The notes under the pieces are model-generated. The model was not told the origin of the DNA and did not search any database. It was given only the letters and a program-made list of their open reading frames with translations. A stretch of DNA of 46,231 bases from a virus, in the IMG/VR virus record IMGVR_UViG_3300042090_001045. The stretch is one strand, 5' to 3'. Each line of letters starts with the position of its first letter. Positions within the stretch are counted from its first letter, which is position 1. Both the position numbers and the translations under genes were made by a program. This document shows positions 34,190 through 46,231 of this stretch, piece after piece.

Positions 34190-36388
34190 ATGGACAACAG
34201 CGTCTTCATTGACGCGCTCGCGCCTATTCTTACGCGCGTTGCGCCTGAATCATGCTGGATCAAAAAAGACGGGCAAGCGCCGAAGCACATCAAGTCAGGG
34301 CTTACGCGCGCTCGTCTCCTTCAACACTTCGGCAACGGCCCGTACTTTGGCGCGGCTCCTATGTCGCCCGGGTCAAGCACGACGCAGATTGCCTTACTGG
34401 ATATTGACGATCATGACGGCTCAGTGGGTTGGGAAGGAATCGTTAGAAGCGTTTCTCTACTATTTGAACACGCGCGAACGCGCGGCCTTCATGCGATTCC
34501 TTTCCGATCTTCCGGCGGATCAGGCGCGCACATTTACTTTATATGGAACGGAACTCAGGATGGATACTCCGTCCGCCAGTTACTTATTTCAACCCTCCAG
34601 CATTGCGGCTACGCATCTGGAAGTAAAGGTCTTGCTTCCGGTGAAATCGAAATTTTCCCGAAGCAAGACGTAGTTCCGGAAGACGGCTGGGGCAACATGT
34701 TCATCCTGCCTCTTGCCAAAGCTTCTTTGCCGCTCGACCCGTTGGAGTTTGACCCGCTTGACCGCGAGACGGTACTAACAATGGCGTGGCCGGTCTCCGA
34801 TCCGGTTCCCGTCGTAGAGCGCGAAATCATTCAGCGAAATACCGACATTGTAGATACCTGTCTAGACGACCTTCGCGCGGCGCTCAACGCTATCCCCAAT
34901 ACCGGCGATAGCGAGTTGTCTTATGACGACTGGCGAAACGTTATTTTTGGTTTGCACAACGCCACCGGCGGCTCAGACGATGGGCTTGCATTGGCGCATG
35001 AATTTTCGGCCAAGTCCGGTAAGTACGACGCTGACTTCTTAGAATCACGCGTTTGGCCGTACATCAAGGAAGATCACGGCACCGAGCGTGGGGCGATCAC
35101 CGCGAATACCATCTTTGCGATGGCACGTGAGTATGGTTTCGTTGAAGACGTGAGCGCTAAATTTGACATCATTGAAGCGCCCGCTACTGAAGACACCATT
35201 GAACTCCCAAAGTTCGAGCGCCGCAAAGACGGCGCGATTCTCGCTAACATCTCCAATCTTGCCTACGCTTTGTCCGATCCGAACGTTTGCGCCATGCGCA
35301 TCCGGTACGATGAATTCAAAGACGAGGTGATGCTCGCCCGTCAGGGCACGGAAGAGTGGCGAGCGATTCGCGACAAAGACATTACCGACATGCGCATCTA
35401 TCTTGAACGCAACGGCTTCCTGTCGCTTGGCAAAGAGATGACGCGTGATGTATTCGGCAGCGTGGCGGAAGAGAACAGTTTCGACTCGGCGATTTTTTGG
35501 CTTGAGAATCTGCCCAAATGGGACGGCAAGCCACGCGTGGCTAAGTTCCTGACTCGCTACTTCAAGACCGAAGACACGCCCTATGCAGACGCCGTATCTA
35601 GGTATATCTGGACTGCGCTTGCGGGACGAGTGATGGAGCCGGGCGTGAAGTGCGACATGGCCCCTATTCTGGTTGGCGAACAGGGTAGCGGCAAAACGGA
35701 CGGTATCAAAGCGATGGTGCCTTCCGAAGAGTTCTATGGCGAACTGGATCTATCGGACAAGGATGACGACTTGGCCCGTGTAATGCGCGGCAAGCTGGTG
35801 TGCGAACTGGAAGAACTGCGCGGTATGTCCAGCCGTGAACAGAAAGGCATCAAAGCGTTCATTACGCGCACGCATGAGGAATGGGTACCGAAGTTCAAGG
35901 AGTTTGCCACCAAATACCCGCGTCGTTGCCTGCTGATCGGTTCGACCAACGAAGAAGAGAATCTAGACGACGAGACGGGTGCACGGCGCTATCTGCCGAT
36001 CAAAGTCGGCCCTACCGATCTGGCGGCGCTCAGGGCCGACCGCGATCAGCTTTGGGCGGAAGGCTTGGCGATGTTTCGCAAGAAGGGTGTCATGTGGCAA
36101 GACGCGATGCGCTTGGCCCGCAACGAACACGCGGCGTTCACCGTGCGGGACGCATGGGAAGAATCGGTGCAATGCTGGCTGGAAGAGTGCGACTTGGACG
36201 AGATGACGCCGCGTGGAGAAATCTACTTCACGACCCGCAGCGTATTGACCGGCGCGCTCGGCTTTGAAATGCGGCATGTCCGCCGTTCGGAAGATATGCG
36301 CATGAACAAACTGCTGGTGAAAATGGGCTACACGCGCAAATCAAAACGGACCCCGGAGGGCCCGCGTTGGGTGTGGGGGAAGGATTAA
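34190..36388 (+). CDS. Primase-polymerase (AEP) / PriCT / D5-VirE-type P-loop NTPase fusion
   Basis: 732 aa. LLDIDDHDG (DxD) and GAHIYFIW (AEP His motif). SYDDWRNVIFGLHNATGGSDDGLALAHEFSAKSGKYD is PriCT-like. Walker A GEQGSGKT. Confidence 0.85.
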   Translation: MDNSVFIDALAPILTRVAPESCWIKKDGQAPKHIKSGLTRARLLQHFGNGPYFGAAPMSPGSSTTQIALLDIDDHDGSVGWEGIVRSVSLLFEHARTRGLHAIPFRSSGGSGAHIYFIWNGTQDGYSVRQLLISTLQHCGYASGSKGLASGEIEIFPKQDVVPEDGWGNMFILPLAKASLPLDPLEFDPLDRETVLTMAWPVSDPVPVVEREIIQRNTDIVDTCLDDLRAALNAIPNTGDSELSYDDWRNVIFGLHNATGGSDDGLALAHEFSAKSGKYDADFLESRVWPYIKEDHGTERGAITANTIFAMAREYGFVEDVSAKFDIIEAPATEDTIELPKFERRKDGAILANISNLAYALSDPNVCAMRIRYDEFKDEVMLARQGTEEWRAIRDKDITDMRIYLERNGFLSLGKEMTRDVFGSVAEENSFDSAIFWLENLPKWDGKPRVAKFLTRYFKTEDTPYADAVSRYIWTALAGRVMEPGVKCDMAPILVGEQGSGKTDGIKAMVPSEEFYGELDLSDKDDDLARVMRGKLVCELEELRGMSSREQKGIKAFITRTHEEWVPKFKEFATKYPRRCLLIGSTNEEENLDDETGARRYLPIKVGPTDLAALRADRDQLWAEGLAMFRKKGVMWQDAMRLARNEHAAFTVRDAWEESVQCWLEECDLDEMTPRGEIYFTTRSVLTGALGFEMRHVRRSEDMRMNKLLVKMGYTRKSKRTPEGPRWVWGKD

Positions 36389-36781
36389 TTAGCAAGGCCC
36401 TCCCACGATTTGTTCATGGCGATTATTTTTCTCATGGAAACCAAATGTATTGGTAAATGTAAAAATACAACGAGAATATTTTTCTTTATTCCCTTCGCTG
36501 TAATAAAACCGTTGGCGCATTTCCGGAAAACCGCCAAAACTTGTCCACATAACGAAAGTTATGGTTTCTCCTACTCTATGCATATAACTTTTTGAGACGC
36601 CTCCCGTTTTCTGCGACGCCAGATTAATGTCTCTGAACTGTACGCGAGAATCTATAATTTTGTGCGGTTTCATAGTAATTTCTATTCGAGCGCGTTCCGG
36701 GATAGGTCGGATTCTGGTAATTACACCGTGTATTTCGACTTCAGTAGAAATGTGTTTTTGTAATATTTTTGTGCTAGCCAT
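36389..36781 (-). CDS. Hypothetical protein in a low-GC island
   Basis: 130-aa ORF, visibly AT-rich compared with all neighbours. Its stop abuts the primase stop with no gap. Confidence 0.55.
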   Translation of the reverse strand: MASTKILQKHISTEVEIHGVITRIRPIPERARIEITMKPHKIIDSRVQFRDINLASQKTGGVSKSYMHRVGETITFVMWTSFGGFPEMRQRFYYSEGNKEKYSRCIFTFTNTFGFHEKNNRHEQIVGGPC

Positions 36782-36790
36782 AATTCACCT

Positions 36791-37000
36791 CTAGATATTA
36801 GGCTCAGACGGTGCCCAATTGACTGAGCATTTTACCGTCAAATTTGACATGCCGGGCGGCAGTTCAGGCGTCAAGAGCGCCGCCCGCATCGTTTCGCAGG
36901 TCTCGTAATCCTTTAAGAAAATGAACTTGTGCATCGGTTCGCCATGATACGACCATGCCGCCGACAACACCCAAAATATAATTGCGTTGACCGGCGGCAT
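36791..37000 (-). CDS. Hypothetical protein with hydrophobic N-terminus
   Basis: 69-aa ORF. N-terminal MPPVNAIIFWVLSAAWS looks like a signal or TM segment. Confidence 0.45.
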   Translation of the reverse strand: MPPVNAIIFWVLSAAWSYHGEPMHKFIFLKDYETCETMRAALLTPELPPGMSNLTVKCSVNWAPSEPNI

Positions 37001-37009
37001 GGTTGACCC

Positions 37010-37123
37010 CTACTTATAGAAAATCGAAATAACCCAAGCACGGAACTTTTCGCCAAAGGTCTTAAAGCCTTCCCAGCCCGCGCCTAGCAGAAGGCCAATA
37101 GCGAAGCATATAACGTATTTCAT
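37010..37123 (-). CDS. Hydrophobic mini-protein (37 aa)
   Basis: Hand-translated MKYVICFAIGLLLGAGWEGFKTFGEKFRAWVISIFYK. RBS AAGGAG 7 nt upstream. Confidence 0.45.
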   Translation of the reverse strand: MKYVICFAIGLLLGAGWEGFKTFGEKFRAWVISIFYK

Positions 37124-37125
37124 TT

Positions 37126-37221
37126 CTATTCTCCTTCAAACTCTACCCAGCCGGTGAGCAGACAAATGGCCGTCCACAGCGCCGCCCCTGCAATCATAGA
37201 GAGCACGATAATCATGTTCAT
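37126..37221 (-). CDS. Hydrophobic mini-protein (31 aa)
   Basis: Hand-translated MNMIIVLSMIAGAALWTAICLLTGWVEFEGE, with GGAGA upstream. Confidence 0.4.
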   Translation of the reverse strand: MNMIIVLSMIAGAALWTAICLLTGWVEFEGE

Positions 37222-37298
37222 TCTCCGAGACAAAGAAGGGCCAGAAGCCCGAAAGCGCCGAGCGCCATACCTGCAATGAAGAAAAGACCTTCAATCAT
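37218..37298 (-). CDS. Hydrophobic mini-protein (26 aa)
   Basis: Hand-translated MIEGLFFIAGMALGAFGLLALLCLGE. ATGA-coupled to the next mini-ORF. Confidence 0.35.
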   Translation of the reverse strand: MIEGLFFIAGMALGAFGLLALLCLGE

Positions 37299-37301
37299 GA
37301 T

Positions 37302-37766
37302 TCATCTCCCGAATAGGGCTGCTGTGAGTTGATCCATCGCCGGAGCGATATTTTGCGTTTTTACCTTTTTACTCTTTGCTACTCTACGCTGAACAGGTTC
37401 GTAAACTTCACCGTCAACTCGACCGTAAAAAGTGCGGTCTGCGACTTTTTTAATAGTGATTTCGGTTGCATGCCGCATAAGCGTTGCGCGGGCCAGTTCG
37501 TAACTCATACCGTCAAACATTTTGTGTATCTGGCCTGGAGTATAGAACTGATTCGGGTGCTCGTCTAAGAATGTTACAATTTTCTGCCAAGTAGAAATTT
37601 TGTTTTCTGGGCCTTTCGGGCCGAGTTTGTCTTTATACGCACGTTTAGCGATGGCGAAGTCTGTGCGGCTAGGGAACACGGCTTTAAGAGCTTCACTTGA
37701 CGCGTTATCACGCCACATCTTTTCAAGCAGCGCACGCTCTTGTAAAGACCAGTTAGGGGCTTTCAT
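37302..37766 (-). CDS. Hypothetical protein
   Basis: ORF 37302-37790 trimmed to the ATG preceded by GAGGAG (MKAPNWSLQE...). Confidence 0.55.
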   Translation of the reverse strand: MKAPNWSLQERALLEKMWRDNASSEALKAVFPSRTDFAIAKRAYKDKLGPKGPENKISTWQKIVTFLDEHPNQFYTPGQIHKMFDGMSYELARATLMRHATEITIKKVADRTFYGRVDGEVYEPVQRRVAKSKKVKTQNIAPAMDQLTAALFGR

Positions 37767-37848
37767 CGGTTTGCTCCTCGCAGGGGGCAATGATTAGCAC
37801 TGTGGCCTGATTGACCACACCACGTACATACTTGTCGGGTTGCGTAAG

Positions 37849-38259
37849 TCATTTTGCTTTTCCGTTGGCGGCAATGGCGGCGTACTCGTCCAGCAGCGTA
37901 TCGAGCATTTCTGCCGACAGCGCGCCGCGTGCTTGCCAGCCAGCGTAGAAGTTTTCAAAAGCATCGTTGCCGTACTGCCAACCTTTAAGGGCGAGCCACT
38001 GCTTCGCCACCTCCCGCTCATCCCCGCCCATTTTCGCGGGAGACGTGAGGGCTGGATAATCGCGTTGAACATCCGGCGTAAATTTTTCGATCACGAAACG
38101 CCGTGCAGCTTCCCCGTCGGCGCCCACCTGCGGCACATCTGCGGCGCGTTCGGCGTAGATTCCCGTGCGCTTGTCCGGGTCGCCATAGTGTTCACGCTCA
38201 AGCGCGGCGTAGTCAGGCTGCTGCGCATCTGCCATACCGCCGTTGTTGATCTCGCTCAT
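37849..38259 (-). CDS. Hypothetical protein
   Basis: 136-aa ORF, ATGA-coupled to the upstream gene. Confidence 0.55.
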   Translation of the reverse strand: MSEINNGGMADAQQPDYAALEREHYGDPDKRTGIYAERAADVPQVGADGEAARRFVIEKFTPDVQRDYPALTSPAKMGGDEREVAKQWLALKGWQYGNDAFENFYAGWQARGALSAEMLDTLLDEYAAIAANGKAK

Positions 38260-38510
38260 ACTTGTTGACCTCGCGTTTTGGAGAGAGCTGACGGATAAAC
38301 TGCGTAGAGCTCTTCATGGGCGCGCGGATTCTTGTATCCGGGGGCAGTCCAGCCCCAAATCATTCGCGCTTTTGTTTCCCAAGTTGTGAACTCGGGGTTC
38401 TCGTTATTCGGCATGATGTCGCGCGGGTCAGCAAATAGCGCAGCGAAGAACTGATCTTTGCTAACCGTAATCATTCCGTTCGGGATACCCGGTGTGCATT
38501 TATCAGTCAT
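38256..38510 (-). CDS. Hypothetical protein
   Basis: ORF trimmed to ATG 38510 (MTDKCTPG...) with AAGGGGG upstream. Confidence 0.5.
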   Translation of the reverse strand: MTDKCTPGIPNGMITVSKDQFFAALFADPRDIMPNNENPEFTTWETKARMIWGWTAPGYKNPRAHEELYAVYPSALSKTRGQQV

Positions 38511-38883
38511 GATGTACCCCCTTTGCCTTTTCGATGGCGGTGCGGGCATGAAACAAGCCGTCTAACTGTTTATCTGTAACTTCAATGCCCAGCGCGTCCA
38601 ACCATTCGATGACGGTTTCTCGGCTCACGCGCTCGCCTGTGAGGAACGACGAACCCTCTTCGGGATATTCGGCGTCCCATGCGTACAGCCCAGAGCCGCT
38701 ATGGCCACTTTCGTCGCCCATCTGCAATGCGATCTCGCCGTCGAGTTGATCGGTGTCGGTCGCACGATCCGGTGCGATGAGGTCGAGCGCTTCAAGCAAC
38801 TGCCAGCCGGTGAGAGTCAGCGGTGCAGGTTTCTCGCGCTCGCCGCCATTCACGGGTGCGGCGTTGGTGTAAGTATCTTTCAT
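38503..38883 (-). CDS. Hypothetical acidic protein
   Basis: 126-aa ORF with ATG start. Confidence 0.55.
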   Translation of the reverse strand: MKDTYTNAAPVNGGEREKPAPLTLTGWQLLEALDLIAPDRATDTDQLDGEIALQMGDESGHSGSGLYAWDAEYPEEGSSFLTGERVSRETVIEWLDALGIEVTDKQLDGLFHARTAIEKAKGVHHD

Positions 38884-38886
38884 GAT

Positions 38887-39078
38887 TTATCTCTCCTTCA
38901 AATTAGCCGCGCCGTAACGATCAACGTATTGGGCAAGCAGCACAATGGGTTTAGGAACGGGGCGTCTGCCGTATTCGTATTGCTTGAAACTTTGCAGTTC
39001 CACCCCTAACAGTTTAGCGGCGGCGGGTTGGGTTAGCGCATTCCGCAATCGCCATTCGCGGATTTGTTTAGGGGTCAT
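38887..39078 (-). CDS. Xre/Cro-type helix-turn-helix protein
   Basis: 63 aa. LTQPAAAKLLGVELQSFKQYEYGRRPVP is a classic HTH_3 pattern. Confidence 0.7.
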   Translation of the reverse strand: MTPKQIREWRLRNALTQPAAAKLLGVELQSFKQYEYGRRPVPKPIVLLAQYVDRYGAANLKER

Positions 39079-39087
39079 TTTATGTGC

Positions 39088-39185
39088 CTACCAGAAAAAT
39101 GCGATCAGGATTAACCCTAATACCGGCAACCAAGCTGGGGTTAGCGCGCACAAAATTAAAATTGCCGATTCAACTTTATAGTATT

Positions 39186-39189
<4 letters not shown>
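39088..39189 (-). CDS. Hydrophobic mini-protein (33 aa) ATGA-coupled to the last GY-repeat gene
   Basis: Hand-translated MKYYKVESAILILCALTPAWLPVLGLILIAFFW. Its start shares the conserved CGATGAAATAC junction. Confidence 0.45.
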
Positions 39190-39487
<298 letters not shown>

Positions 39488-39491
<4 letters not shown>

Positions 39492-39733
39492 CGCGTCACC
39501 ATTCGATAAGGGTACGCACCCCAGCCGTTGCCGTAGCCGTAGCCGTAGCCGTAGCCGTGGCCGTCGCCGTAGCCGTAGCCGTAGCCGTCGCCGTAGCCGT
39601 CGCCGTTGCCGTTGCCGTTGCCGTAGCCGTAGCCGTAGCCGTAGCCGTCGCCGTAGCCGTTGCCGTCGCCGTGGCCGTGGCCGTGGCCGTGGCCGTGGCC
39701 GTTGCCGTGGCCGTGGCCGTCTGGGTATTTCAT
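39488..39733 (-). CDS. (Gly-X)n GY-repeat protein A2 (81 aa), with N-terminal Gly-His tract
   Basis: MKYPDGHGHGNGHGHGHGHGHGDG...GWGAYPYRMVTR. ATGA overlaps at both ends. Confidence 0.75.
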
Positions 39734-40005
39734 CGCGTCACCATTCGGTAAGGGTAAGCGCCCCAGCCGTAGCCGCTGCCGTTGCCGCTGCCGTTGCCGT
39801 CGCCGTTGCCGTAGCCGTAGCCGTAGCCGTAGCCGTCGCCGTAGCCGTTGCCGTAGCCGTAGCCGTCGCCGTAGCCGTAGCAGTAGCCGTAGCCGCTGCC
39901 GTTGCCGTAGCCGTCGCCGTAGCCGTCGCCGTAGCCGTTGCCGTAGCCGTTGCCGTAGCAGTAGCCGCTGCCGTTGCCGTCGCCGTAGCCCTTTGGGTAT
40001 TTCAT
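39730..40005 (-). CDS. (Gly-X)n GY-repeat protein A3 (91 aa)
   Basis: ORF 39730-40074 trimmed to ATG 40005 (MKYPKGYGDGNG...GWGAYPYRMVTR). That ATG overlaps the TGA of the vWA gene (ATGA). Confidence 0.75.
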   Translation of the reverse strand: MKYPKGYGDGNGSGYCYGNGYGNGYGDGYGDGYGNGSGYGYCYGYGDGYGYGNGYGDGYGYGYGYGNGDGNGSGNGSGYGWGAYPYRMVTR

Positions 40006-41057
40006 CGAGTCACCACATCTACGCCGCCGAGCGCCGCCGCCAATTTGGTAGCCCCGCAACCTATCGGCACACACAGGACTTTGCTTTTTTGTTTGTGGAC
40101 TCCTTCCGGCACCGGGTCACCGTCCGTAATGACAATGGCAAGTTTCGGTGTGGTTTTTTGCAGATGTTGAGAAATCAAATGATAAGGCGTATCACCTCCG
40201 CCGCCCGGGTCTTTGGCTACGAGTTTCCCGTTGCCAAAAAACCACACATCAGCGCGGATGGTCGCGCCGTACCGTTGCAAGAGCGCACGCAATTGGCTTT
40301 CTGCATGCGCGGTTTTCTCGGCGGTGAACGAACCGCTGCGGTCAACGAATATCTCTACGAGTGGCGGACGTGGTGTTGAGACCGCGCCCGCCGCCAAGAT
40401 ACTGCTATCCTGGTGGCGACGCGACGGGCGGCGGTAAGACTTTTCCCGGGTTACGCGCGAACGGAGCGCAGCATCCACTTCGTCGGTAAGCGTAGGCGGG
40501 CGGTTCTTTGCCAAAGCATAGGCACTAGCAGCCGCAGCTTGAGCCTCTTTTGCGTTTTCTTCCGCGTCCAGCTTCTCCCGCACCGCTTGGAGCACGCCGA
40601 TATCAGCAGGGGCGGCGCTTTCTCCCCCTTGCCCGTCGCCCGAGCAGCAACTGCAACACATTTTAGCCGTCTGCGGTTGTTGCTCGGGGTTGTCGAGAAG
40701 CCACTGATAAATATCTTCGGCCAACACAACATCGGGCGGCAAGCCCTCGTAAGTGTCAGGGAGATAGCCGCCCGTCAGCCGTGAGCGGGGCGCAGTGATA
40801 TTTTGAATATCTTGCTCATCGTAAATCGTGCGAGCAATTTCCATTTCACACGCCGCCGCCCACACGTCGTGGCGGCAGTCCTTGGGCGTACGCGCGTTGT
40901 GCCGCGCCCACACATGCGCTTGTTCGTGGCGCAGTGTCGTGCGGTATTCGGGCTTGTTGAGTTCGGACGCGATATAGATGCGCGTAAAATCCGTCATACC
41001 CGGCGCGCCGATCTCTTCCAAGGGCTTGCGTACAACAGGGGCGGCGGTGAGTTCCAT
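40002..41057 (-). CDS. vWA-domain protein with N-terminal HExxH metallopeptidase-like domain (DUF2201-type architecture)
   Basis: 351 aa. HEQAHV zinc motif, a central Cys cluster (MCCSCCSGDG), MIDAS-like VDRSGS and VITDGD in the C-terminal half. Confidence 0.8.
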   Translation of the reverse strand: MELTAAPVVRKPLEEIGAPGMTDFTRIYIASELNKPEYRTTLRHEQAHVWARHNARTPKDCRHDVWAAACEMEIARTIYDEQDIQNITAPRSRLTGGYLPDTYEGLPPDVVLAEDIYQWLLDNPEQQPQTAKMCCSCCSGDGQGGESAAPADIGVLQAVREKLDAEENAKEAQAAAASAYALAKNRPPTLTDEVDAALRSRVTREKSYRRPSRRHQDSSILAAGAVSTPRPPLVEIFVDRSGSFTAEKTAHAESQLRALLQRYGATIRADVWFFGNGKLVAKDPGGGGDTPYHLISQHLQKTTPKLAIVITDGDPVPEGVHKQKSKVLCVPIGCGATKLAAALGGVDVVTR

Positions 41058-41840
41058 TTAGACCCTCAGAATTTTGGCGGTTTTGGCGGCAACGCCGGAA
41101 CGGCGAACCGAAGACGTAGCCTTACTCAACACCTCATTATCCGCTTTGCGGATGAAGTGCATGATTTGGCTGGCGGTAGCGGGCGTCAGCAGGCCGCGAA
41201 CCAACGTATCGACGCTATCTTCTTCGGCACCGCGTTGGATCGCCTGAAGGGCCATTGCCAGTGTGCGGGGCGTGGTGATACGACGATCGAGCCCTTCGCC
41301 AGTCATATCAAATACCGGCATCTCGCCATTGCGCACGCTTTCGATCACACGGTTAGCCGCGGGCGTATTGAACTTCGTCTTCGCCCATGCTGCCCACTTA
41401 CCCACGTCCGGTACGTAATCGATCACTGCGAACCGGGAAAGCATGGCGTCGCCAATCCCGTCGCCCCCGCCGAATTCGGGCGGGTTAGCGGCCGCAACGA
41501 TACAAGTATCCTCGGGCAGCGCCGCCGAGCCGACTTGCCGAGATGCGACGAGCGTGAGCAAAGTGTCGGCTACCGAGCGGCGAGCCTTGTCCAGTTCGTC
41601 AAGAAAGAGCACCGTAGTCTTCCCGGCGGCGCTCGCCTCGTGCAGACGGCGAAAGATGCTTGGCACGGTGCGGTAATCGTAATCCCCCTCGCGGTACGGA
41701 AGGCCTGCGATATCTTCCTCAACCAAGGTGGAAGTCAATACGATTTCTGCGTGTTCGAAATGGGCGCGCACACTTGCGGTTTTGCCCACGCCCGGCGCGC
41801 CTACCAACAGCACAGGAATTTCCGGCGAAAACAGGTTCAT
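41058..41840 (-). CDS. MoxR-like AAA+ ATPase
   Basis: 260 aa. Walker A LLVGAPGVGKT, Walker B VLFLDELD. Directly precedes the vWA partner gene. Confidence 0.8.
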   Translation of the reverse strand: MNLFSPEIPVLLVGAPGVGKTASVRAHFEHAEIVLTSTLVEEDIAGLPYREGDYDYRTVPSIFRRLHEASAAGKTTVLFLDELDKARRSVADTLLTLVASRQVGSAALPEDTCIVAAANPPEFGGGDGIGDAMLSRFAVIDYVPDVGKWAAWAKTKFNTPAANRVIESVRNGEMPVFDMTGEGLDRRITTPRTLAMALQAIQRGAEEDSVDTLVRGLLTPATASQIMHFIRKADNEVLSKATSSVRRSGVAAKTAKILRV

Positions 41841-42337
41841 GATGGGTTCCTCAAATTAAGTAAATATTGTTCACGAGCATCGCGGGCTTCTTCCGGGGTG
41901 CGATAAGTGCCTATATGTTTCGAAATACCGTTTATGCATACTTGGGCGCGGAATCCAGTCCCGTTACGACTTACTCCTATGTAAGGTATTTCTCCGTAAG
42001 CAACGTGCATGTTTTGCATATTGATCGTTTGAGGTACGTCGCGAAGGTTAATAAACCGGTTATCGTTTTTTACTCCGTTGATGTGGTCTATGTGGAATTT
42101 AGGCCAATTACCGGTTTGCAGCGCCCAAGCTACCCGGTGCGCAAAATACTCTTTGCGTTTCAAGATTACCTTCACATATCCGCCAACTGTTATTTTCCCA
42201 GCGGGTCGGTCTAAATACCTCCCGCTTCCAGAAAACCGCCACCATAAATCGCCGGTGGCGGGGTCGTAACGCATATGCTCACGGAAAACGTTTAACGTTT
42301 CTTCGGTTTCTTTTGCCGCCCGCTGTTCAAACGTCAT
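41837..42337 (-). CDS. HNH endonuclease with AP2 domain (second copy in the genome)
   Basis: ORF trimmed to ATG 42337. HIDHINGVKNDNRFINLRDV HNH core and an AP2-like YIGVSRNGTGFRAQVCINGISKHIGTYRTPEEARDAREQY. ATGA-coupled to the AAA+ gene. Confidence 0.8.
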   Translation of the reverse strand: MTFEQRAAKETEETLNVFREHMRYDPATGDLWWRFSGSGRYLDRPAGKITVGGYVKVILKRKEYFAHRVAWALQTGNWPKFHIDHINGVKNDNRFINLRDVPQTINMQNMHVAYGEIPYIGVSRNGTGFRAQVCINGISKHIGTYRTPEEARDAREQYLLNLRNPS

Positions 42338-42385
42338 TTTCCTGTCCAAGATGTTTAAAGGATCAGGATATCACAATTCAAGGGA

Positions 42386-42661
42386 TCAGCGCAAGGTGGA
42401 GCCTTTGAAGGCGTACAGATCAACTGAGTCCGCGATTGCATACACCGCCGAGATCGGAAACAGCACTTCGGTTTCCGGATCGAAACGGTCAAGATTGACC
42501 GTCATGTCTTTGTCGCCGCGTGCGAGGCCGGGCATGCCTTTGCCCCCGGAGAAGCCACCAAACATAGCGGCGTTCTTGAGCGCCACATAGCCTTCCGGCG
42601 CGGTCACCTCAGTGCCGAAGTAGTAGAAGCCACCGGCAACCGTTACGATTTTCGTGTTCAT
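42386..42661 (-). CDS. Hypothetical protein
   Basis: 91-aa ORF with ATG start and GAGGAA upstream. Confidence 0.55.
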   Translation of the reverse strand: MNTKIVTVAGGFYYFGTEVTAPEGYVALKNAAMFGGFSGGKGMPGLARGDKDMTVNLDRFDPETEVLFPISAVYAIADSVDLYAFKGSTLR

Positions 42662-42719
42662 TTTGATTTCCTCAGAAAGTTAGGTACTACAGGGTTTTGG
42701 GCTTTGCGGCCCGGTTAGG

Positions 42720-42803
42720 TTACTTACTAAGCCACAACGCCAACCCTACGACAACGGCTAAAGCTGTAGCGTGGATCAAACCGGCGATTAGGGGAATCAG
42801 CAT
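42720..42803 (-). CDS. Hydrophobic mini-protein (27 aa)
   Basis: Hand-translated MLIPLIAGLIHATALAVVVGLALWLSK. RBS AAGGAG 7 nt upstream. Confidence 0.4.
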   Translation of the reverse strand: MLIPLIAGLIHATALAVVVGLALWLSK

Positions 42804-42839
42804 TTCGTTTGCTCCTTGCGGTTGGCTTGTTTGCTTACT

Positions 42840-43270
42840 GTGAGTCTATGGTAGTCTATGACTACTTTTTGATGCTAATTGATTTTAGCTATGTGATTTT
42901 AGGATTGATCGTTGATCGCTATGCGAATGCGTAATTCTTGCGAGTTTGTAGTCAGTAGCCAAGCTTTTGGACGTTTGTAGCATACCGGTCTGCTACGCGG
43001 AAACCCTTGCGGCGTGGGCGTTTGCGGGAGTGTAGCTAACGTAGTCAACCTATTACTATTAATTTGATTATATATAGGGAGAGGGGGGTACATAGCTACG
43101 CCGTAGACAGTGCATAAATATGTGTAGGGGTAATTAATAGGGTTTTTGCGACTACATTGACTACAAATCGCTGGAACCCCTTATGCGGCGCGGGTTTCGG
43201 CGTAGTTGTCCGGTACGACTACATTCAGCTACTACAACTACATTGACTACAATGCGTAATTTTTGCGGGT
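42840..43270. promoter_or_regulatory. Non-coding block rich in GACTAC/GTAGTC iterons and palindromes, with an AT-rich core (origin and/or operator cluster candidate)
   Basis: GTAGTCtatGACTAC (42851-42865); tandem TTGATCG x2 (42904-42917); AT-rich tattactattaatttgattatatatag (43051-43078); GACTACAttGACTACAA (43150-43166); GACTACAttcagctACTACAACTACAttGACTACAA (43217-43252); ATGCGTAATTyTTGCGrGTTT twice (about 42925 and about 43251). Confidence 0.6.
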
Positions 43271-43285
43271 TTCGCAAGGGGAGCG

Positions 43286-43315
43286 TGAAAAGAGAAACGG
43301 CCCTTGCGGGCCGTT
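43286..43315 (-). terminator. Rho-independent terminator ending the second GY-array operon
   Basis: Minus sense: AACGGCCC-GCAA-GGGCCGTT followed by TCTCTTTTC. Lies about 15 nt after the stop of the 35-aa ORF. Confidence 0.75.
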
Positions 43316-43331
43316 AGGGGTTGGGGCGGTG

Positions 43332-43439
43332 TTAGAAGAACATTTTGGATATAGCTAACGCAGCGAACGCTATCATGAAAATACTGGCGCTCAGCACAAA
43401 CACGCAGAAACAAAAACGTTCAAATTTACCCATTTTCAT
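43332..43439 (-). CDS. Hydrophobic mini-protein (35 aa)
   Basis: Hand-translated MKMGKFERFCFCVFVLSASIFMIAFAALAISKMFF. ATGA-coupled to the upstream mini-ORF. Confidence 0.4.
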   Translation of the reverse strand: MKMGKFERFCFCVFVLSASIFMIAFAALAISKMFF

Positions 43440-43573
43440 TCTCCGTAATTGGTTTCCCACCAAGCGCTCAGCAGGCTGGCTATGCCGCATGCGATAGCCC
43501 ACTGGATAAGGATTGAGCCGTCGTACAACAGACCGCAGCCCAAACTGATACAGAAAATTGCTACGTAATGCAT
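43436..43573 (-). CDS. Hydrophobic mini-protein (45 aa)
   Basis: Hand-translated MHYVAIFCISLGCGLLYDGSILIQWAIACGIASLLSAWWETNYGE. GAGGAA 7 nt upstream. Confidence 0.4.
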   Translation of the reverse strand: MHYVAIFCISLGCGLLYDGSILIQWAIACGIASLLSAWWETNYGE

Positions 43574-43583
43574 TTTGTGTTCC

Positions 43584-43640
43584 TCATCGCGTTATTAAAT
43601 GGTAGGGGTAACGGACCCAGCCGCCGTCTGGGTAGTTCAT
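43584..43640 (-). CDS. Cap-only mini-ORF of the GY family (18 aa; possibly a repeat-collapsed remnant)
   Basis: MNYPDG-GWVRYPYHLITR: N-cap joined directly to a diverged C-cap with no repeat body. ATGA-coupled to B2 through the same 55-nt junction used between B1 and B2. Confidence 0.4.
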   Translation of the reverse strand: MNYPDGGWVRYPYHLITR

Positions 43641-43918
43641 CTCGTCACCATTCGGTAAGGGTACGCACCCCAGCCGTCGCCGCCGCCGTAGCCGTAGCCG
43701 TAGCTGTAGCCGTAGCTGTAGCCGTAGCCGTTGCCGTAGCCGTAGCTGTAGCCGTAGCTGTAGCCGTAGCCGTTGCCGTCGCCGTAGCCGTCGCCGTAGC
43801 CGTAGCCGTCGCCGTCGCCGTAGCCGTAGCCGTCGCCGTCGCCGTCGCCGCCGCCGTCGCCGCCGCCGTCGCCGTAGCCGTTGCCGTTGCCGTCGCCGTA
43901 GCCGTCTGGGTAGTTCAT
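43637..43918 (-). CDS. (Gly-X)n GY-repeat protein B2 (93 aa)
   Basis: MNYPDGYGDGNGNGYGDGGGDGGGDGDGDGYGYG...YSYGYSYGYGYGGGDGWGAYPYRMVTR. ATGA overlaps at both ends. Confidence 0.75.
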   Translation of the reverse strand: MNYPDGYGDGNGNGYGDGGGDGGGDGDGDGYGYGDGDGYGYGDGYGDGNGYGYSYGYSYGYGNGYGYSYGYSYGYGYGGGDGWGAYPYRMVTR

Positions 43919-44154
43919 CTCGTCACCATTCGGTAAGGGTACGCACCCCAGCCGTAGCCGTAGCCGCCGCAGATCGCCCCGCCGCCGCCGTAGCTGTCGC
44001 CGTCGCCGTCGCCGTCGCCGTAGCCGTAGCCGGTGCCGTAGCCGTCGCCGTAGCCGTCGCCGTAGCCGTAGCCGTAGCCGCAGCCGTAGCCGTAGCCGTC
44101 GCCGTAGCCGTTGCCGTAGCCGTTGCCGTAGCCGTTGCCCTTTGGGTATTTCAT
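43915..44154 (-). CDS. (Gly-X)n GY-repeat protein B1 (79 aa)
   Basis: ORF trimmed to ATG 44154 (MKYPKGNGYGNG...GGGGAICGGYGYGWGAYPYRMVTR). That ATG overlaps the TGA of the upstream membrane-protein gene. Confidence 0.75.
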   Translation of the reverse strand: MKYPKGNGYGNGYGNGYGDGYGYGCGYGYGYGDGYGDGYGTGYGYGDGDGDGDSYGGGGAICGGYGYGWGAYPYRMVTR

Positions 44155-44432
44155 CTTTCCATATCCCAAGGTTGCGTTGAGTCGAGTCGCATGCTGTAGC
44201 GTTCGTAGGAGGGTTTATCGGCGGCGCTTATCGGCCCGCGCATCGCGCTCGCTTCCGCCTCGGCGAGCCCGTCGTACATACGTTTGGCATGATCCTGTTC
44301 GCGCAACCGGAGCCACTTGTCAGCGTGCCGCGTGTAGAGTTTGTTGGTGATTTTGATATCGATGAGAGCGATAGCGCCGACCAGCACCGCCGCCGCTAAG
44401 ATGAAAGCAATTACGCATAGCGTAAATGTCAT
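44151..44432 (-). CDS. Single-pass membrane protein (93 aa), first gene of the minus arm
   Basis: ORF 44151-44615 trimmed to ATG 44432 preceded by AAGGAGAA. N-terminal TM helix MTFTLCVIAFILAAAVLVGAIALI followed by a charged tail. Confidence 0.6.
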   Translation of the reverse strand: MTFTLCVIAFILAAAVLVGAIALIDIKITNKLYTRHADKWLRLREQDHAKRMYDGLAEAEASAMRGPISAADKPSYERYSMRLDSTQPWDMER

Positions 44433-44514
44433 GATGGTTCTCCTTAAAAGTTGTCGCTGACTACTATTGTAGACTTTGCCTATTTTTTGTGCACTAGTAT
44501 TTACCCTAAGCTGT

Positions 44515-44545
44515 ACTTGTATATACAAGTGTTCGCTGTGCGAAC
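44515..44545. promoter_or_regulatory. Two adjacent perfect palindromes upstream of the early arm (operator candidates)
   Basis: ACTTGTATATACAAGT (44515-44530), immediately followed by GTTCGCtgtGCGAAC (44531-44545). Confidence 0.5.
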
Positions 44546-44848
44546 ATGGGTCTTTTCGTCCCTTATATAGCGCTCTATACAACGCGCATAGAACACCACG
44601 TAATCCACCCCGCAAACCGCACTGCTCAATAATGCATCAGGCTGTGCATAACTTCGCTAAGTCATTGATTACAAAGCATTCACGATTTAACATAATGCAC
44701 GTTATGCGAAGTCGATTGTTAGAGTGGTTTCTCGCTGATCGCGCTGAGAGATATGATTGGCGCGGGTTTGCGCCTAGAGTGCGCGTGTTGCAGGATGCGG
44801 TTGGGTTTGGCCGAAAATGGTGGCCCCCGGGGGTAAATTAAGGATTGT

Positions 44849-44862
44849 TAGTACCGGTACTA
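44849..44862. promoter_or_regulatory. 14-bp perfect palindrome TAGTACCGGTACTA (operator candidate)
   Basis: Self-complementary. Related to the CCGG-centred GTAG...CTAC palindromes at 42977-42996 and 43202-43222. Confidence 0.45.
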
Positions 44863-44940
44863 CCCTGTTTCCGACGGCGCTAGGGGTTTAAAAAGACCCC
44901 AAAACCCATTCCGCATTATGAAATTTTCAGAAAGGTTTCA

Positions 44941-44978
44941 TCCAAAAGAAAAGGCCCGCAACCGTTAAGCTGCGAGCC
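44941..44978 (-). terminator. Orphan rho-independent terminator (minus strand) in the arm-divergence region
   Basis: Minus sense: GGCTCGCA-loop-TGCGGGCC (7 of 8 pairs) followed by TTTTCTTTTGG. No annotated gene lies upstream. Confidence 0.5.
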
Positions 44979-45319
44979 TGAAAAATTCCTTGCCGTATTA
45001 TTACGAACGTTGCGGACGCCCCCGTCGCGCATTTAGCCCGTTCATGTCCGGGCGGAGGAGGCTTACATTTCGTGGCGTCCTGCCGGTGTTTTTACCCACC
45101 TCCGGCTGGGGCATGAAAACGAACTACGCTAATTTTACAATGCGAAACCGCCCCTTGTTCGCAAACTTCCAAGCATGGTAAGCGACCGAAGGCGTATTGC
45201 CTATGCCGGTCAAGCCGTCGAGATGACAGCGCCACAAGCCTTGTGTGAACCAGATTCGAGGTTTCGGCAATTCCATTGTATAATCCTTTTCAAGCAAATG
45301 ACAGTTGAGCCCTCAAACC

Positions 45320-45943
45320 ATGGCCGACGAAATTGTAAGCAATGAATTTCCGGATACCGACTACGCGGGCCGAGAGGCTTTCGTGTTGGCATTCTACCAC
45401 TCGGGCGGCAAGATGGAGGCCGCTATCAAAGCGTCCGACACGACGCGCTCGCTCGCCTATCTGTGGCGGGATCAGGAATGGTTCAAGCAGCGGCTCAAGG
45501 AAGTCAAGATCGCCGCCGATAGGGTCATGGAACGCAAGATGACGACGATCATCGACAAGGCGTTCAACGTGATCGAGAACCGGCTTGACGAAGGCGACCC
45601 CCGTTACGTACCCGCAAAATACGACCGCAATGGCGAATTGATCGACCCGGAAAAGACAATCCGCGTCGGCGTCTCCGCCCACACCGCCGTTATCGTAGCG
45701 GGAACCCTATTCGATAAAAGAGATAAGCTACGCGCAACCGACGAAGGGCGCGGGCAGTCTGCCGAGGCTAACCAGCTTCAGAACATCGCCAGTAAGCTAG
45801 AGGCGGTCATGAACCGCCAACTCAAGAAGGAAGAAGCGAATACGATTGACGTAGAGGTTAAACCCATCGGCGACTTTGCGGACAAGGGTAAAAAGCCCGG
45901 TCGCAAAAAGAAAACCGAAGCCCCACCGTGCGATTTGGACTAA
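45320..45943 (+). CDS. terS: Terminase small subunit (probable)
   Basis: ORF trimmed to ATG 45320 (MADEIVSNE...), 207 aa. First gene of the late arm, upstream of terL apart from the inserted HNH gene. Lys-rich C-terminus. Call is positional. Confidence 0.6.
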   Translation: MADEIVSNEFPDTDYAGREAFVLAFYHSGGKMEAAIKASDTTRSLAYLWRDQEWFKQRLKEVKIAADRVMERKMTTIIDKAFNVIENRLDEGDPRYVPAKYDRNGELIDPEKTIRVGVSAHTAVIVAGTLFDKRDKLRATDEGRGQSAEANQLQNIASKLEAVMNRQLKKEEANTIDVEVKPIGDFADKGKKPGRKKKTEAPPCDLD

Positions 45944-45946
45944 ATC

Positions 45947-46231
45947 ATGACCGAAATCTATACACGTAAGGGCATAGCCATTCTTGTTGACGATGAGGAT
46001 TACGATAGACTGAATGCGTATACTTGGCGGCTCGACAGAAACGGTTACGCAATGCGCAGTTTGAAAATTGGCGAAAGGTACACCAACCAATACATGGCAC
46101 GTGAGATTGCGGGGACGTGTATTGGCGACGGGAAAGAAGTAGATCACATTAACGGTGTGAGACTCGATAACCGAAAAAGCAATTTACGGTTTTGCGATAG
46201 GAAAGGAAATACCAGAAACACTACTTTACGA
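45947..46231 (+). CDS. HNH/AP2 endonuclease, 5' part (continues at 99-278 after the circular junction)
   Basis: ATG 45947 (MTEIYTRKGIAILVDDEDYDRLNAYTWRLDRNGYAMR...). Open to the window end, in frame with 1-278. Confidence 0.85.
   Translation, partial: MTEIYTRKGIAILVDDEDYDRLNAYTWRLDRNGYAMRSLKIGERYTNQYMAREIAGTCIGDGKEVDHINGVRLDNRKSNLRFCDRKGNTRNTTLR
46134..46231. repeat. Terminal overlap, second copy of 1-98
   Basis: Identical to bases 1-98. Confidence 0.95.

What the first reader, a model, noticed from the sequence alone, without database searches (positions are those of the whole stretch)
40002..41840. MoxR-like AAA+ ATPase plus vWA/HExxH-peptidase pair as the likely partner module of the GY proteins
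The AAA+ gene (Walker A GAPGVGKT, Walker B LFLDELD) is followed by a protein combining an HEQAH zinc-peptidase-like N-domain, a Cys cluster and a MIDAS-bearing vWA domain (VDRSGS ... ITDGD).

MoxR-family ATPases are known to work with vWA partners as remodelling or metal-insertion chaperones (CbbQ/CbbO, NorQ/NorD, CobS/CobT, RavA/ViaA).

Here the pair is co-transcribed with, and translationally coupled to, three low-complexity GY proteins. The inference is a three-part system in which the GY proteins are clients, substrates (processed by the peptidase) or effectors delivered by the pair. An HNH homing endonuclease is inserted directly upstream.
Basis: partly seen in the sequence, partly recalled or inferred. 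Interest (0 to 1): 0.75.

Follow-up and report, generated by a model that had tools for sequence, protein, structure and literature searches.

The report
Phage ATPase/vWA pair with Gly-Tyr proteins
A temperate Burkholderia-type phage carries a conserved four-part gene cassette (a small Sm-like protein, an AAA+ ATPase, a zinc-peptidase/vWA protein and several glycine-tyrosine repeat proteins) of unknown function. The Sm-like protein, not the ATPase pair, is the near-universal partner of such Gly-Tyr proteins across phages.

Summary
On the minus strand, 41058-41840 encodes an AAA+ ATPase and 40002-41057 encodes an HExxH-peptidase/MIDAS-vWA protein. Three Gly-Tyr (GY) genes follow, joined by ATGA overlaps, and an HNH gene lies upstream. 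Both enzymes are divergent homologues of the phage N4 gp24/gp25 core pair.

GY genes follow the vWA gene in 17 of 18 related loci and in a Cupriavidus prophage, even where vWA identity is only 31%.

It has a confidently predicted Sm-like fold and is related to Pfam DUF6948. Surveys of viral contigs show three things:
- DUF6948-like plus GY is a widespread and almost obligate two-gene cassette (63 of 69 loci).
- Most GY genes have no AAA+/vWA pair nearby.
- Most N4-type pairs have no GY genes nearby.

The AAA+/vWA pair is therefore an add-on, joined to the Sm-like/GY core in a few lineages. In this window it is inserted between the two core genes.

The function is unknown. My best inference is that the GY proteins are self-associating, low-complexity proteins that work with the Sm-like protein, and that the ATPase/vWA-peptidase remodels or trims them.

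The parts
42386..42661 (-). orf91: 91-aa Sm-like protein, a distant relative of DUF6948. It is the most conserved gene of the cassette (motifs GGFYYFG and MFGGFSGGKGxPGxARGD).
   Evidence: It lies next to the AAA+/vWA genes in all 18 related loci at 56-72% identity. The AlphaFold2 model built on 29 homologues has pLDDT 96.3. Foldseek finds Sm/LSm proteins (3by7, E 9e-4) and phage DUF6948 proteins (TM 0.62-0.71). hhalign against the GY-adjacent DUF6948 proteins gives 96.2% probability, E 2e-9.
41837..42349 (-). HNH homing endonuclease inserted between orf91 and the AAA+ gene. It is not part of the conserved cassette.
   Evidence: HNH_3 2.4e-13 and phrog_99 1e-45. No HNH match lies at this position in the related loci.
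41058..41840 (-). AAA+ ATPase of the AAA_5 / MoxR-midasin type, homologous to phage N4 gp24.
   Evidence: AAA_5 9.5e-10 and phrog_1297 5e-27. K20, D81, E82, N119 and R136 are invariant. The closest solved relative is a midasin AAA domain, 6e-11. hhalign to JWAlpha gp33 gives 98.2% probability, E 4.5e-14.
40002..41057 (-). Zincin-like peptidase (HExxH plus a downstream acidic residue) fused to a MIDAS-bearing vWA-like domain. It is a divergent DUF2201_N/DUF2201 protein homologous to N4 gp25.
39730..40005 (-). GY1: 91 aa, MKYPKG-(G-Y/D/N)n-WGAYPYRMVTR. Its start overlaps the vWA stop codon (ATGA).
39488..39733 (-). GY2: 81 aa, with a Gly-His stretch followed by Gly-Tyr repeats. ATGA-coupled to GY1.
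39186..39491 (-). GY3: 101 aa, rich in Gly-Tyr and Gly-Thr. ATGA-coupled to GY2.
43915..44154 (-). GY5: 79 aa, with the same caps. It belongs to a second, separate GY operon and is ATGA-coupled to an upstream membrane-protein gene.
43637..43918 (-). GY4: 93 aa, with the same caps. ATGA-coupled to GY5.
43584..43640 (-). 'Zero-repeat' GY ORF of 18 aa, MNYPDGGWVRYPYHLITR. It consists only of the N- and C-terminal caps and is ATGA-coupled to GY4.

Best explanation
What it is (shown). The window holds a conserved accessory cassette of four kinds of genes in the early region of a temperate BcepC6B/BPP-1-like phage:
- an Sm-like DUF6948-related protein (orf91);
- an AAA+ ATPase homologous to N4 gp24;
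- a zincin-peptidase/vWA protein homologous to N4 gp25;
- one to six tandem, hypervariable, acidic Gly-Tyr repeat proteins with conserved short caps (an N-terminal hydrophobic-Pro-x-Gly motif and a C-terminal YPY plus hydrophobic tail).

The ancestral and widespread core is the two-gene pair of Sm-like protein plus GY protein. The AAA+/vWA pair is a separable module recruited to that core in a few lineages. In this window it was inserted between the two core genes, and an HNH gene was later inserted as well.

How it most likely works (inferred):
- The GY proteins are disordered, self-associating, low-complexity proteins. Synthetic GYGYGYG peptides form amyloid-like, metal-binding fibrils.
- They act together with the presumably ring-forming Sm-like protein, as an assembly, gel or condensate, or as a complex that sequesters a host factor early in infection.
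- The vWA MIDAS site engages an acidic side chain, either Asp in the G-D-G repeats or the RGD-type loop of orf91.
- The AAA+ ring supplies ATP-driven remodelling.
- The fused zincin trims the caps, so the pair controls assembly, solubility or turnover of the GY/Sm-like complex.
For: Linkage within this family:
- GY genes follow the vWA gene in 17 of 18 loci and in a complete Cupriavidus prophage that has five tandem GY genes.
- orf91 is present in every locus.
- The genes stay contiguous although their order differs (orf91-AAA-vWA-GY; AAA-orf91-vWA-GY; AAA-vWA-orf91-GY), and none of the window's flanking genes used as queries was found in these loci.
- N4-type AAA+/vWA pairs lie next to GY genes in three further arrangements.

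The GY ORFs are real genes:
- The amino-acid pattern is kept while the repeated codons differ between lineages: GGC/NAC in the window, GGC/NAT in Luteibacter, GGG/NAT in L012.
- The caps, the start codons and the ATGA coupling are conserved.
- They are annotated as CDS in the cultured phages RcapNL and Barba.

The enzymes look active:
- The Walker A/B, sensor-1 and Arg-finger positions are invariant.
- The HExxH, acidic and MIDAS residues are invariant.

The core pair:
- 63 of 69 DUF6948-like loci have a GY gene directly downstream.
- In 55 GY loci a DUF6948-like gene ends 6-237 nt upstream of the GY repeats.
- Sm-like subfamilies go with particular cap types.

Self-assembly of GY sequences: PMC10510724 and PMC8163036.

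Precedent for the MoxR-vWA chaperone concept and for phage pairs with a fused metallopeptidase: PMC7824862 and PMC7159879.

Position in an early operon next to the CI-like repressor and recombination genes.
Against: - There is no experimental or structural evidence of any interaction.
- Most Sm-like/GY cassettes have no AAA+/vWA pair.
- Most N4-type pairs have no GY genes. Each module therefore works without the other.
- One relative, L007, has the three other genes but no GY gene.
- The caps could be read by the Sm-like protein rather than by the vWA-peptidase.
- Co-location could partly reflect a shared early accessory region.
- The self-assembly argument is extrapolated from 7-residue synthetic peptides. 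The natural proteins carry many Asp residues, which could keep them soluble.
Confidence: 0.4

Rival explanations
1. These are two independent accessory modules that are merely neighbours. The AAA+/vWA-peptidase pair does whatever N4 gp24/gp25 do, for example maturation of a replication or virion component. The Sm-like/GY pair has an unrelated role, and there is no direct interaction.
For: The modules occur separately in most phages. gp24/gp25 are core genes of N4-like phages, and the JWAlpha locus examined shows no GY gene. L007 keeps orf91, AAA+ and vWA without a GY gene. Iyer et al. proposed a virion-assembly role for such pairs.
Against: The genes stay contiguous down to 31% vWA identity despite internal rearrangement and differing flanks. 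ATGA coupling of the vWA gene to the first GY gene is seen throughout the close clade. At least four different arrangements place such pairs next to GY genes. The pair is inserted between the two otherwise adjacent core genes.
Confidence: 0.22
2. The GY proteins are precursors that the zincin cuts into short peptides, such as signals, toxins or metal-binding peptides. This would resemble a RiPP or propeptide system, with the caps acting as leader and follower recognition sequences.
For: The precursor-like genes are small, tandem and hypervariable, with conserved termini, and they sit directly downstream of a peptidase and are translationally coupled to it. A caps-only mini ORF exists.
Against: No modifying enzyme, exporter or signal peptide was found in the cassette. 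Most GY genes in phages have no peptidase nearby. The caps differ completely in families without the AAA+/vWA pair.
Confidence: 0.12
3. The cassette is a conflict system, either prophage-encoded defence or anti-defence. The acidic Tyr/Asp-rich GY proteins would act as decoys, for example nucleic-acid or substrate mimics that titrate a host or competitor factor. The MoxR-vWA pair would act as the thresholding switch, as in the MoxR-vWA ternary systems.
For: The components are hypervariable, which is typical of conflict systems. The cassette lies downstream of, and on the same strand as, the CI-like repressor, next to a lipoprotein gene. There is a conceptual precedent in PMC7159879. The GY proteins are acidic, with pI about 4.
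Against: No PADLOC family matches beyond generic AAA noise. No recognisable effector domain is present. The Barba-type phages carry the pair near their DNA polymerase and exonuclease genes.
Confidence: 0.15
4. The GY 'genes' are not translated. The (GGCNAC)n arrays would be DNA or RNA repeats with a nucleic-acid-level role, or none at all.
For: Codon use inside the arrays is almost monotonous: GGC and NAC at about 98-100%, against 48% and 57-65% in other genes of the window. All three sense frames are open. Metagenome assemblies often break at the arrays.
Against: Different lineages use different codons for the same amino-acid pattern. The start codon, the caps and the stop codon are conserved in one frame only. 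A Shine-Dalgarno-like GGTGA lies before each ATGA start. GY regions are also fused in frame to globular domains in other phages.
Confidence: 0.04

Closest known systems
Phage N4 gp24 (AAA+ ATPase) and gp25 (DUF2201_N/DUF2201), the core gene pair of Schitoviridae
   Same: Both genes are homologous to this pair: hhalign gives 98.2% probability for the ATPase and 96.5% for the vWA protein. The domain order is the same (zincin then vWA), the catalytic and MIDAS motifs are the same, the genes are adjacent, and they sit in an early or replication region.
   Different: Identity is only about 25-30%. The ATPase is about 85 residues shorter (260 against 345 aa). The window proteins fall below the Pfam gathering scores. 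The pair here is embedded in an Sm-like/GY cassette, which JWAlpha lacks. I found no functional study of gp24/gp25 in the papers searched.
MoxR-vWA chaperone/co-chaperone pairs: CbbQ/CbbO, NorQ/NorD, RavA/ViaA, ATV p618/p892 and the jumbo-phage MoxR plus metallopeptidase-vWA pair (Iyer et al. 2021, PMC7824862)
   Same: An AAA_5-type ATPase is encoded next to a MIDAS vWA protein. The jumbo-phage version also has an N-terminal metallopeptidase on the vWA protein.
   Different: The score for MoxR proper (Pfam AAA_3) falls just below its cut-off. No solved MoxR structure was retrieved by sequence; only midasin was. The candidate clients here are low-complexity GY proteins and an Sm-like protein, not a metalloenzyme or a virion part.
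MoxR-vWA 'ternary' conflict systems (Kaur, Burroughs et al. 2020, PMC7159879)
   Same: A MoxR-vWA couple is combined with additional linked and partly hypervariable components, and peptidase processing is proposed.
   Different: None of the defining third components (VMAP, iSTAND, FtsH, beta-propeller) is present, there is no effector domain, and the system is phage-borne.
Pfam DUF6948 phage proteins and Sm/LSm proteins with low-complexity tails (Hfq C-terminal tail, SmB/D1/D3, LSm4)
   Same: orf91 has the Sm-like barrel and is homologous to DUF6948-positive proteins. A low-complexity partner accompanies the Sm-like core.
   Different: The low-complexity part is a separate gene and is never fused (0 of 187 GY ORFs). 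It is acidic and Gly-Tyr rich rather than RG-rich. RNA binding and ring formation are untested. No paper in the library mentions DUF6948.
[G/S]Y[G/S] low-complexity domains (FUS-type) and prion-inspired GYGYGYG peptides
   Same: The composition is Gly about 41-46% and Tyr about 19-25%, with Asp, Asn and Ser. GY7 peptides self-assemble into amyloid-like fibrils that bind Cu, Ni, Co and Zn.
   Different: The resemblance is in composition only and does not imply homology. The natural proteins are 40-120 aa, acidic and capped. No assembly data exist for them.

Membership tests
AAA+ ATPase, AAA_5 / MoxR-midasin type | Walker A GxxGxGK[ST] and Walker B hhhhDE | tested here: met
   GAPGVGKT and VLFLDELD are present. 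G14, G17, G19, K20, T21, D81 and E82 are invariant in 12 homologues.
AAA+ ATPase, AAA_5 / MoxR-midasin type | Pfam AAA_5 score above the gathering score | tested here: met
   39.1 bits against 22. The homologue profile hits midasin AAA domains at 6e-11.
AAA+ ATPase, AAA_5 / MoxR-midasin type | Sensor-1 Asn and Arg finger in the AANP...SRF segment | tested here: met
   N119 and R136 are invariant. The roles of these residues are assigned by analogy with known AAA+ proteins.
MoxR proper (Pfam AAA_3) | Score above the AAA_3 gathering score | tested here: inconclusive
   26.4 bits against 27. No solved MoxR, CbbQ or RavA chain was retrieved.
MoxR-vWA pair | ATPase gene adjacent to a MIDAS vWA gene | tested here: met
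   The genes abut at 41057/41058. The adjacency, or separation only by orf91, holds in all relatives.
MoxR-vWA pair | Hexameric ATPase that binds the vWA partner and remodels a client | not testable with these tools
   This needs biochemistry.
DUF2201_N / DUF2201 (N4 gp25-like) | Pfam gathering scores reached | tested here: not met
   The window protein scores 20.2 against 23.2 bits and 19.3 against 26.4 bits. Of 19 homologues, 12 match DUF2201_N and 7 match DUF2201 at E<=0.01.
DUF2201_N / DUF2201 (N4 gp25-like) | Profile-level homology to a bona fide member | tested here: met
   hhalign gives 96.5% probability, E 9e-10, over 280 columns to JWAlpha gp36. That protein itself scores 6.5e-54 for DUF2201_N and 1.9e-34 for DUF2201. 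The window protein also matches phrog_1314 at 2.7e-21.
DUF2201_N / DUF2201 (N4 gp25-like) | HExxH plus a downstream acidic ligand | tested here: met
   H44, E45, H48 and E73 are invariant. Position 71 is E or D and aligns with the invariant Asp of the N4-type proteins.
vWA domain | MIDAS motif DxSxS...T...D | tested here: met
   D239, S241, S243, T311, D312 and D314 are invariant. T290 in GGGDT is nearly invariant.
vWA domain | The alpha/beta vWA fold | not tested
Sm/LSm-like fold, DUF6948 | Five-stranded bent beta-barrel similar to Sm proteins | tested here: met
   The model has pLDDT 96.3. Foldseek gives 3by7 at E 9e-4 with TM 0.57-0.64, and LSm/SmAP chains at E 2e-3 to 1e-2. BFVD DUF6948 proteins give TM 0.62-0.71.
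Sm/LSm-like fold, DUF6948 | Pfam DUF6948 hit | tested here: not met
   orf91 has no hit at E<=1. Its GY-adjacent relatives match DUF6948 at up to 1.4e-23, and hhalign of orf91 homologues against them gives 96.2% probability, E 2e-9.
Sm/LSm-like fold, DUF6948 | Ring oligomer and RNA binding | not testable with these tools
   No multimer prediction or assay was available.
MoxR-vWA ternary conflict systems | Third component VMAP, iSTAND, FtsH or beta-propeller, plus an effector domain | tested here: not met
   There are no such Pfam hits and no PADLOC family matches.
RiPP-like precursor/peptidase system | A modifying enzyme and/or an exporter next to the precursor genes | tested here: not met
   None was found in the operon or in the relatives.

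The most novel reading that the evidence does not exclude
Sm-like (DUF6948) proteins plus hypervariable Gly-Tyr repeat proteins form a widespread, so far undescribed class of phage self-assembling or condensate-forming systems. The multivalent Sm-like ring would be a hub cross-linked by two-capped, FUS-like GY linkers, deployed early in infection. In this lineage the system would have acquired its own ATP-driven remodeller and trimming protease, derived from the N4 gp24/gp25 pair. That would also give the first clue to what this enigmatic core pair of N4-like phages does.
Probability: 0.2. Interest if true: 0.85.

Novelty: new variant of a known kind. Interest (0 to 1): 0.68.

Why it matters
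The AAA+/zincin-vWA pair is a core gene pair of N4-like phages and also occurs in jumbo phages, yet I found no report of a function or a client for it. Here it is locked into an operon with concrete candidate partners.

The work also exposes a two-gene cassette, Sm-like DUF6948 plus Gly-Tyr repeat protein. It occurs in hundreds of viral contigs and in cultured phages (RcapNL, Rheinheimera Barba phages). It is annotated only as hypothetical, and no paper in the library mentions DUF6948.

FUS-like Gly-Tyr proteins encoded by phages would be a new entry point into protein self-assembly or condensates in infected bacteria.

The repeats also explain why many metagenomic phage contigs break at this locus.

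Tried and rejected
- Megablast of 39000-44300 and tblastn of the vWA protein and of orf91 against 50,697 phage records found nothing. The cassette is absent from the closest cultured phages, BcepC6B and BPP-1.
- Sequence searches of the PDB with the vWA profile gave nothing useful.
- A single-sequence AlphaFold run on orf91 was poor (pLDDT 58) and had to be repeated with an alignment.
- JWAlpha gp35, the small ORF between gp33 and gp36, is not related to orf91.
- The homologue search with a GY protein was dominated by composition effects. It gave only weak hits, although it revealed DUF7666-GY fusions.
- Pfam TrAA12 and NCBIfam 'serine-rich' hits to the GY proteins are composition artefacts below the cut-offs.
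- Rfam found no RNA family in 36000-46231.
- PADLOC found no defence family.
- The globular domains fused to GY regions elsewhere have no Pfam or PHROG match.
- No Sm-like/GY fusion protein was found among 187 GY ORFs.
- The long alternative-frame ORFs across the arrays (RLRLRQ..., AVAVAV...) were rejected as by-products of the hexamer repeat.
Full report
**1. The observation.**

All of these genes lie on the minus strand.
- The stretch 41058-41840 encodes a 260-aa AAA+ protein with GAPGVGKT and VLFLDELD.
- The stretch 40002-41057 encodes a 351-aa protein with LRHEQAHVW, a cysteine cluster (KMCCSCCSG), FVDRSGSF and VITDGD.
- Three Gly-Tyr (GY) ORFs follow at 39730-40005, 39488-39733 and 39186-39491. 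Each overlaps its upstream neighbour by ATGA and is preceded by GGTGA inside the upstream C-terminal codons.
- An HNH gene (41837-42349) overlaps the AAA+ start. It matches HNH_3 at 2.4e-13 and phrog_99 at 1e-45.

No convincing terminator lies between these genes. The only terminator-like site inside this stretch is a weak 6-bp stem within the vWA gene.

**2. Identity of the two enzymes.**

The ATPase:
- It passes Pfam AAA_5 (39 bits against a cut-off of 22).
- It just misses AAA_3, the MoxR-proper model (26.4 against 27 bits).
- It matches phrog_1297 at 5e-27.
- A profile of 12 homologues finds midasin AAA domains as the closest solved relatives (6e-11).
- The Walker A/B, sensor-1 and Arg-finger positions are invariant in that profile.

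The second protein:
- Its Pfam DUF2201_N and DUF2201 hits are below the cut-offs.
- It matches phrog_1314 at 2.7e-21.
- In 19 homologues H44, E45, H48, E73, D239, S241, S243, T311, D312 and D314 are invariant.
- The family profile aligns over 280 columns with Achromobacter phage JWAlpha gp36 at 96.5% probability (E 9e-10), with the HExxH and MIDAS motifs in register. JWAlpha gp36 is a bona fide DUF2201_N/DUF2201 protein (6.5e-54 and 1.9e-34) annotated as similar to N4 gp25.

The ATPase profile aligns with JWAlpha gp33, which is N4 gp24-like, at 98.2% probability (E 4.5e-14). The pair is therefore a divergent version of the N4 gp24/gp25 pair. These two proteins are listed among the core proteins of N4-like viruses (PMC7650795), and I found no functional study of them. 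Iyer et al. noted MoxR plus metallopeptidase-vWA pairs in jumbo phages and guessed at a role in virion assembly (PMC7824862).

**3. Relatives and gene neighbourhood.**

The vWA protein has 81 homologues, from Cupriavidus, Burkholderia, Dyella and Luteibacter genomes and from 35-45 kb metagenomic contigs. I fetched eighteen loci.

GY ORFs lie directly downstream of the vWA gene in 17 of these 18 loci. This includes loci where the vWA protein is only 31-39% identical. One locus (L014) has six tandem GY genes. Many contigs end inside the GY array. A complete Cupriavidus oxalaticus prophage has five ATGA-coupled GY genes. Only L007 lacks a GY gene.

It is present in every locus at 56-72% identity, so it is better conserved than either enzyme. 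The gene order varies:
- orf91-AAA-vWA-GY in most loci;
- AAA-orf91-vWA-GY in L012 and L014;
- AAA-vWA-orf91-GY in L017.

The four genes nevertheless stay contiguous, and none of the window's other flanking genes used as queries was found in these loci. The window's HNH gene is an insertion between orf91 and the AAA+ gene.

**4. What orf91 is.**

It has no Pfam or PHROG hit. An AlphaFold2 model built on 29 homologues is confident (pLDDT 96.3). Foldseek places the model with Sm/LSm proteins: the best match is 3by7 (E 9e-4), followed by many LSm and SmAP chains. It also matches phage DUF6948 proteins at TM 0.62-0.71. This subfamily is rare, with 26 representatives among 1.84 billion proteins.

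**5. Are the GY ORFs genes?**

Within one locus the arrays are almost monotonous at the DNA level. In the window GGC and NAC make up about 98-100% of the relevant codons, against 48% GGC and 57-65% NAC in other genes of the window. Between lineages, however, the repeated codons differ (GGC/NAT in Luteibacter, GGG/NAT in L012) while the amino-acid pattern G-[Y/D/N...] is kept. The caps are kept as well:
- at the N-terminus, M-(K/N/E)-(Y/L)-P-x-G;
- at the C-terminus, YPY followed by a hydrophobic tail.

This points to selection on the protein, together with concerted, slippage-driven evolution of the repeat. Near-identical phages differ in their repeat tracts (L003 against L004; L254/L258 against L255/L257).

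The proteins are acidic, with pI about 4, except the His-rich GY2 at 6.2. They contain 41-46% Gly and 19-25% Tyr.

**6. The wider picture.**

I scanned IMG/VR for DNA encoding GYGYGYGYG. Nearly all of these loci lack the AAA+/vWA pair.

An iterated profile that started from orf91 found orf91-like ORFs ending 6-237 nt upstream of the GY repeats in 55 loci. These ORFs match Pfam DUF6948 at up to 1.4e-23. They are homologous to orf91 by hhalign (96.2% probability, E 2e-9).

I then searched in the opposite direction, starting from a DUF6948-like subfamily alone. That search gave 336 confirmed matches in IMG/VR, of which the best 80 loci were fetched. In 63 of the 69 loci I could examine, a GY gene lies directly downstream. 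Four of the other six end less than 50 nt after the Sm-like gene.

Cultured phages carry the pair too: RcapNL gp47/gp46, downstream of the CI-like repressor, and Rheinheimera Barba gp018/gp017.

The type of Sm-like protein and the type of GY cap go together. For example, Sm-like proteins with DRGFVYVG...WGTTKGLG pair with GY proteins starting LTLDG. Sm-like proteins with RGWIFAGDV...WESIGF pair with GY proteins that have RPVGYG...GTVSTxxRR caps. The two are never fused.

By contrast, of 80 N4-type vWA loci only 3-4, all from one lineage, have Sm-like and GY genes. Even so, N4-type pairs lie directly beside GY genes in three further arrangements (L087, L102, L113), two of which also contain an Sm-like gene.

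**7. Synthesis.**

The ancestral, nearly obligate unit is the Sm-like protein plus the GY protein or proteins. The AAA+/zincin-vWA pair is a separable module that became associated with that unit in a few lineages. In the window's family the association is stable, and the pair is inserted between the two core genes.

The cassette lies in the early region. In the Cupriavidus prophage it sits between the CI-like repressor and the RecT/YqaJ/xis genes. In the window it is next to an HTH gene and the replication genes of a BcepC6B/BPP-1-like phage.

**8. Mechanism (inferred).**

Synthetic GYGYGYG peptides self-assemble into amyloid-like fibrils that bind divalent metals (PMC10510724 and PMC8163036). 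vWA MIDAS sites bind acidic side chains of their ligands; this rests on established knowledge of integrin, CbbO and midasin MIDAS domains. MoxR-type ATPases remodel the bound client (PMC7159879).

The most economical model is that the GY proteins and the Sm-like protein form an assembly or complex. The AAA+/vWA-zincin would then regulate its formation, solubility or turnover, possibly by trimming the caps. I hold the functional coupling at about 0.6 and this specific mechanism at about 0.4 or lower.

The rivals are listed separately with the evidence for and against each:
- independent neighbouring modules;
- peptide-precursor processing;
- a decoy or conflict role;
- non-coding repeats.

No known defence family matches, and no RNA family was found.

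**9. Verdict.**

The composite cassette is a new variant of the known MoxR-type AAA+/vWA theme. The Sm-like/GY core appears undescribed: no paper in the library mentions DUF6948, and my full-text searches for phage Gly-Tyr repeat proteins found nothing relevant.

Noticed in passing
window 43584-43640 (-): An 18-aa 'zero-repeat' GY ORF, MNYPDGGWVRYPYHLITR. It consists only of the two caps and is ATGA-coupled to GY4. It could be a collapsed array or a caps-only competitor.
   Followed up: partly
window 43296-44493 (-): A second, separate GY operon. In order it has a promoter-like site (44493-44466), a 93-aa membrane protein (44151-44432), GY5, GY4, the mini ORF, two tiny hydrophobic ORFs (43436-43573 and one following it) and a hairpin terminator (43315-43296). 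None of the fetched relatives shows GY genes upstream of the cassette.
   Followed up: partly
window 39088-39189 (-) and 42720-42803 (-): Two tiny hydrophobic ORFs flank the cassette: a 33-aa ORF (MKYYKVESAILILCALTPAWLPVLGLILIAFFW), ATGA-coupled to GY3, and a 27-aa ORF just upstream of orf91. They do not appear to be conserved in the Cupriavidus prophage.
   Followed up: no
window 42850-43290: An intergenic region of about 450 nt upstream of the orf91 operon. It has two exact copies of ACTACATTGACTACAA, four GACTACATT-like copies and other direct repeats. These are candidate operator or regulatory sites.
   Followed up: partly
window 42236-42261 (-): A strong terminator-like hairpin (9 bp stem, 7 GC pairs, followed by a T run) inside the 5' part of the HNH gene. 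It might limit read-through or HNH expression.
   Followed up: no
L001, L002, L004, L009, L015, L018 and many of L225-L304: Metagenomic viral contigs very often end within or just after the GY array. The (GGCNAC)n repeats act as assembly breakpoints, so GY genes are probably under-counted in databases.
   Followed up: partly
L024, L052, L097, L068 (and others); L039, L056, L105; P0165, P0178, P0207: GY tracts also occur fused in frame to uncharacterised globular domains. Examples are an N-terminal GY tract followed by a '...FAHGxTLxEA...WHHxLTGSC...' domain, a GY tract followed by a '...KEYWLATID...LHAT...' domain, and Pfam DUF7666 followed by a GY tract and a hydrophobic tail. The first two types still follow a DUF6948-like gene. 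None of the fused domains tested has a Pfam or PHROG match.
   Followed up: partly
L102 (about 11844-12395, -) and L144 4787-5240: HNH-type homing endonuclease genes also sit inside or beside the AAA+/vWA or Sm-like/GY loci of unrelated phages, as in the window. These conserved early genes may be recurrent homing targets.
   Followed up: no
H31/H32 (MW202613, MW202748): In two GenBank 'Caudoviricetes sp.' records the feature next to the DUF6948-like gene is annotated 'lamprin', a lamprey cartilage protein. This is presumably a compositional mis-annotation of a GY gene.
   Followed up: no
P0139 (orf91 homologue): One orf91 homologue cluster is reported on 71 contigs, including one of 23 Mb, which is far larger than a bacterial replicon. 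It could be contamination or an integrated copy in a eukaryotic assembly.
   Followed up: no
window 39186-40116 and 43637-44227, other frames and the opposite strand: Long ORFs reading RLRLRQ... (sense strand, another frame) and AVAVAV... (opposite strand) span the GY arrays. They are by-products of the hexamer repeat and have no conserved starts or ends.
   Followed up: yes
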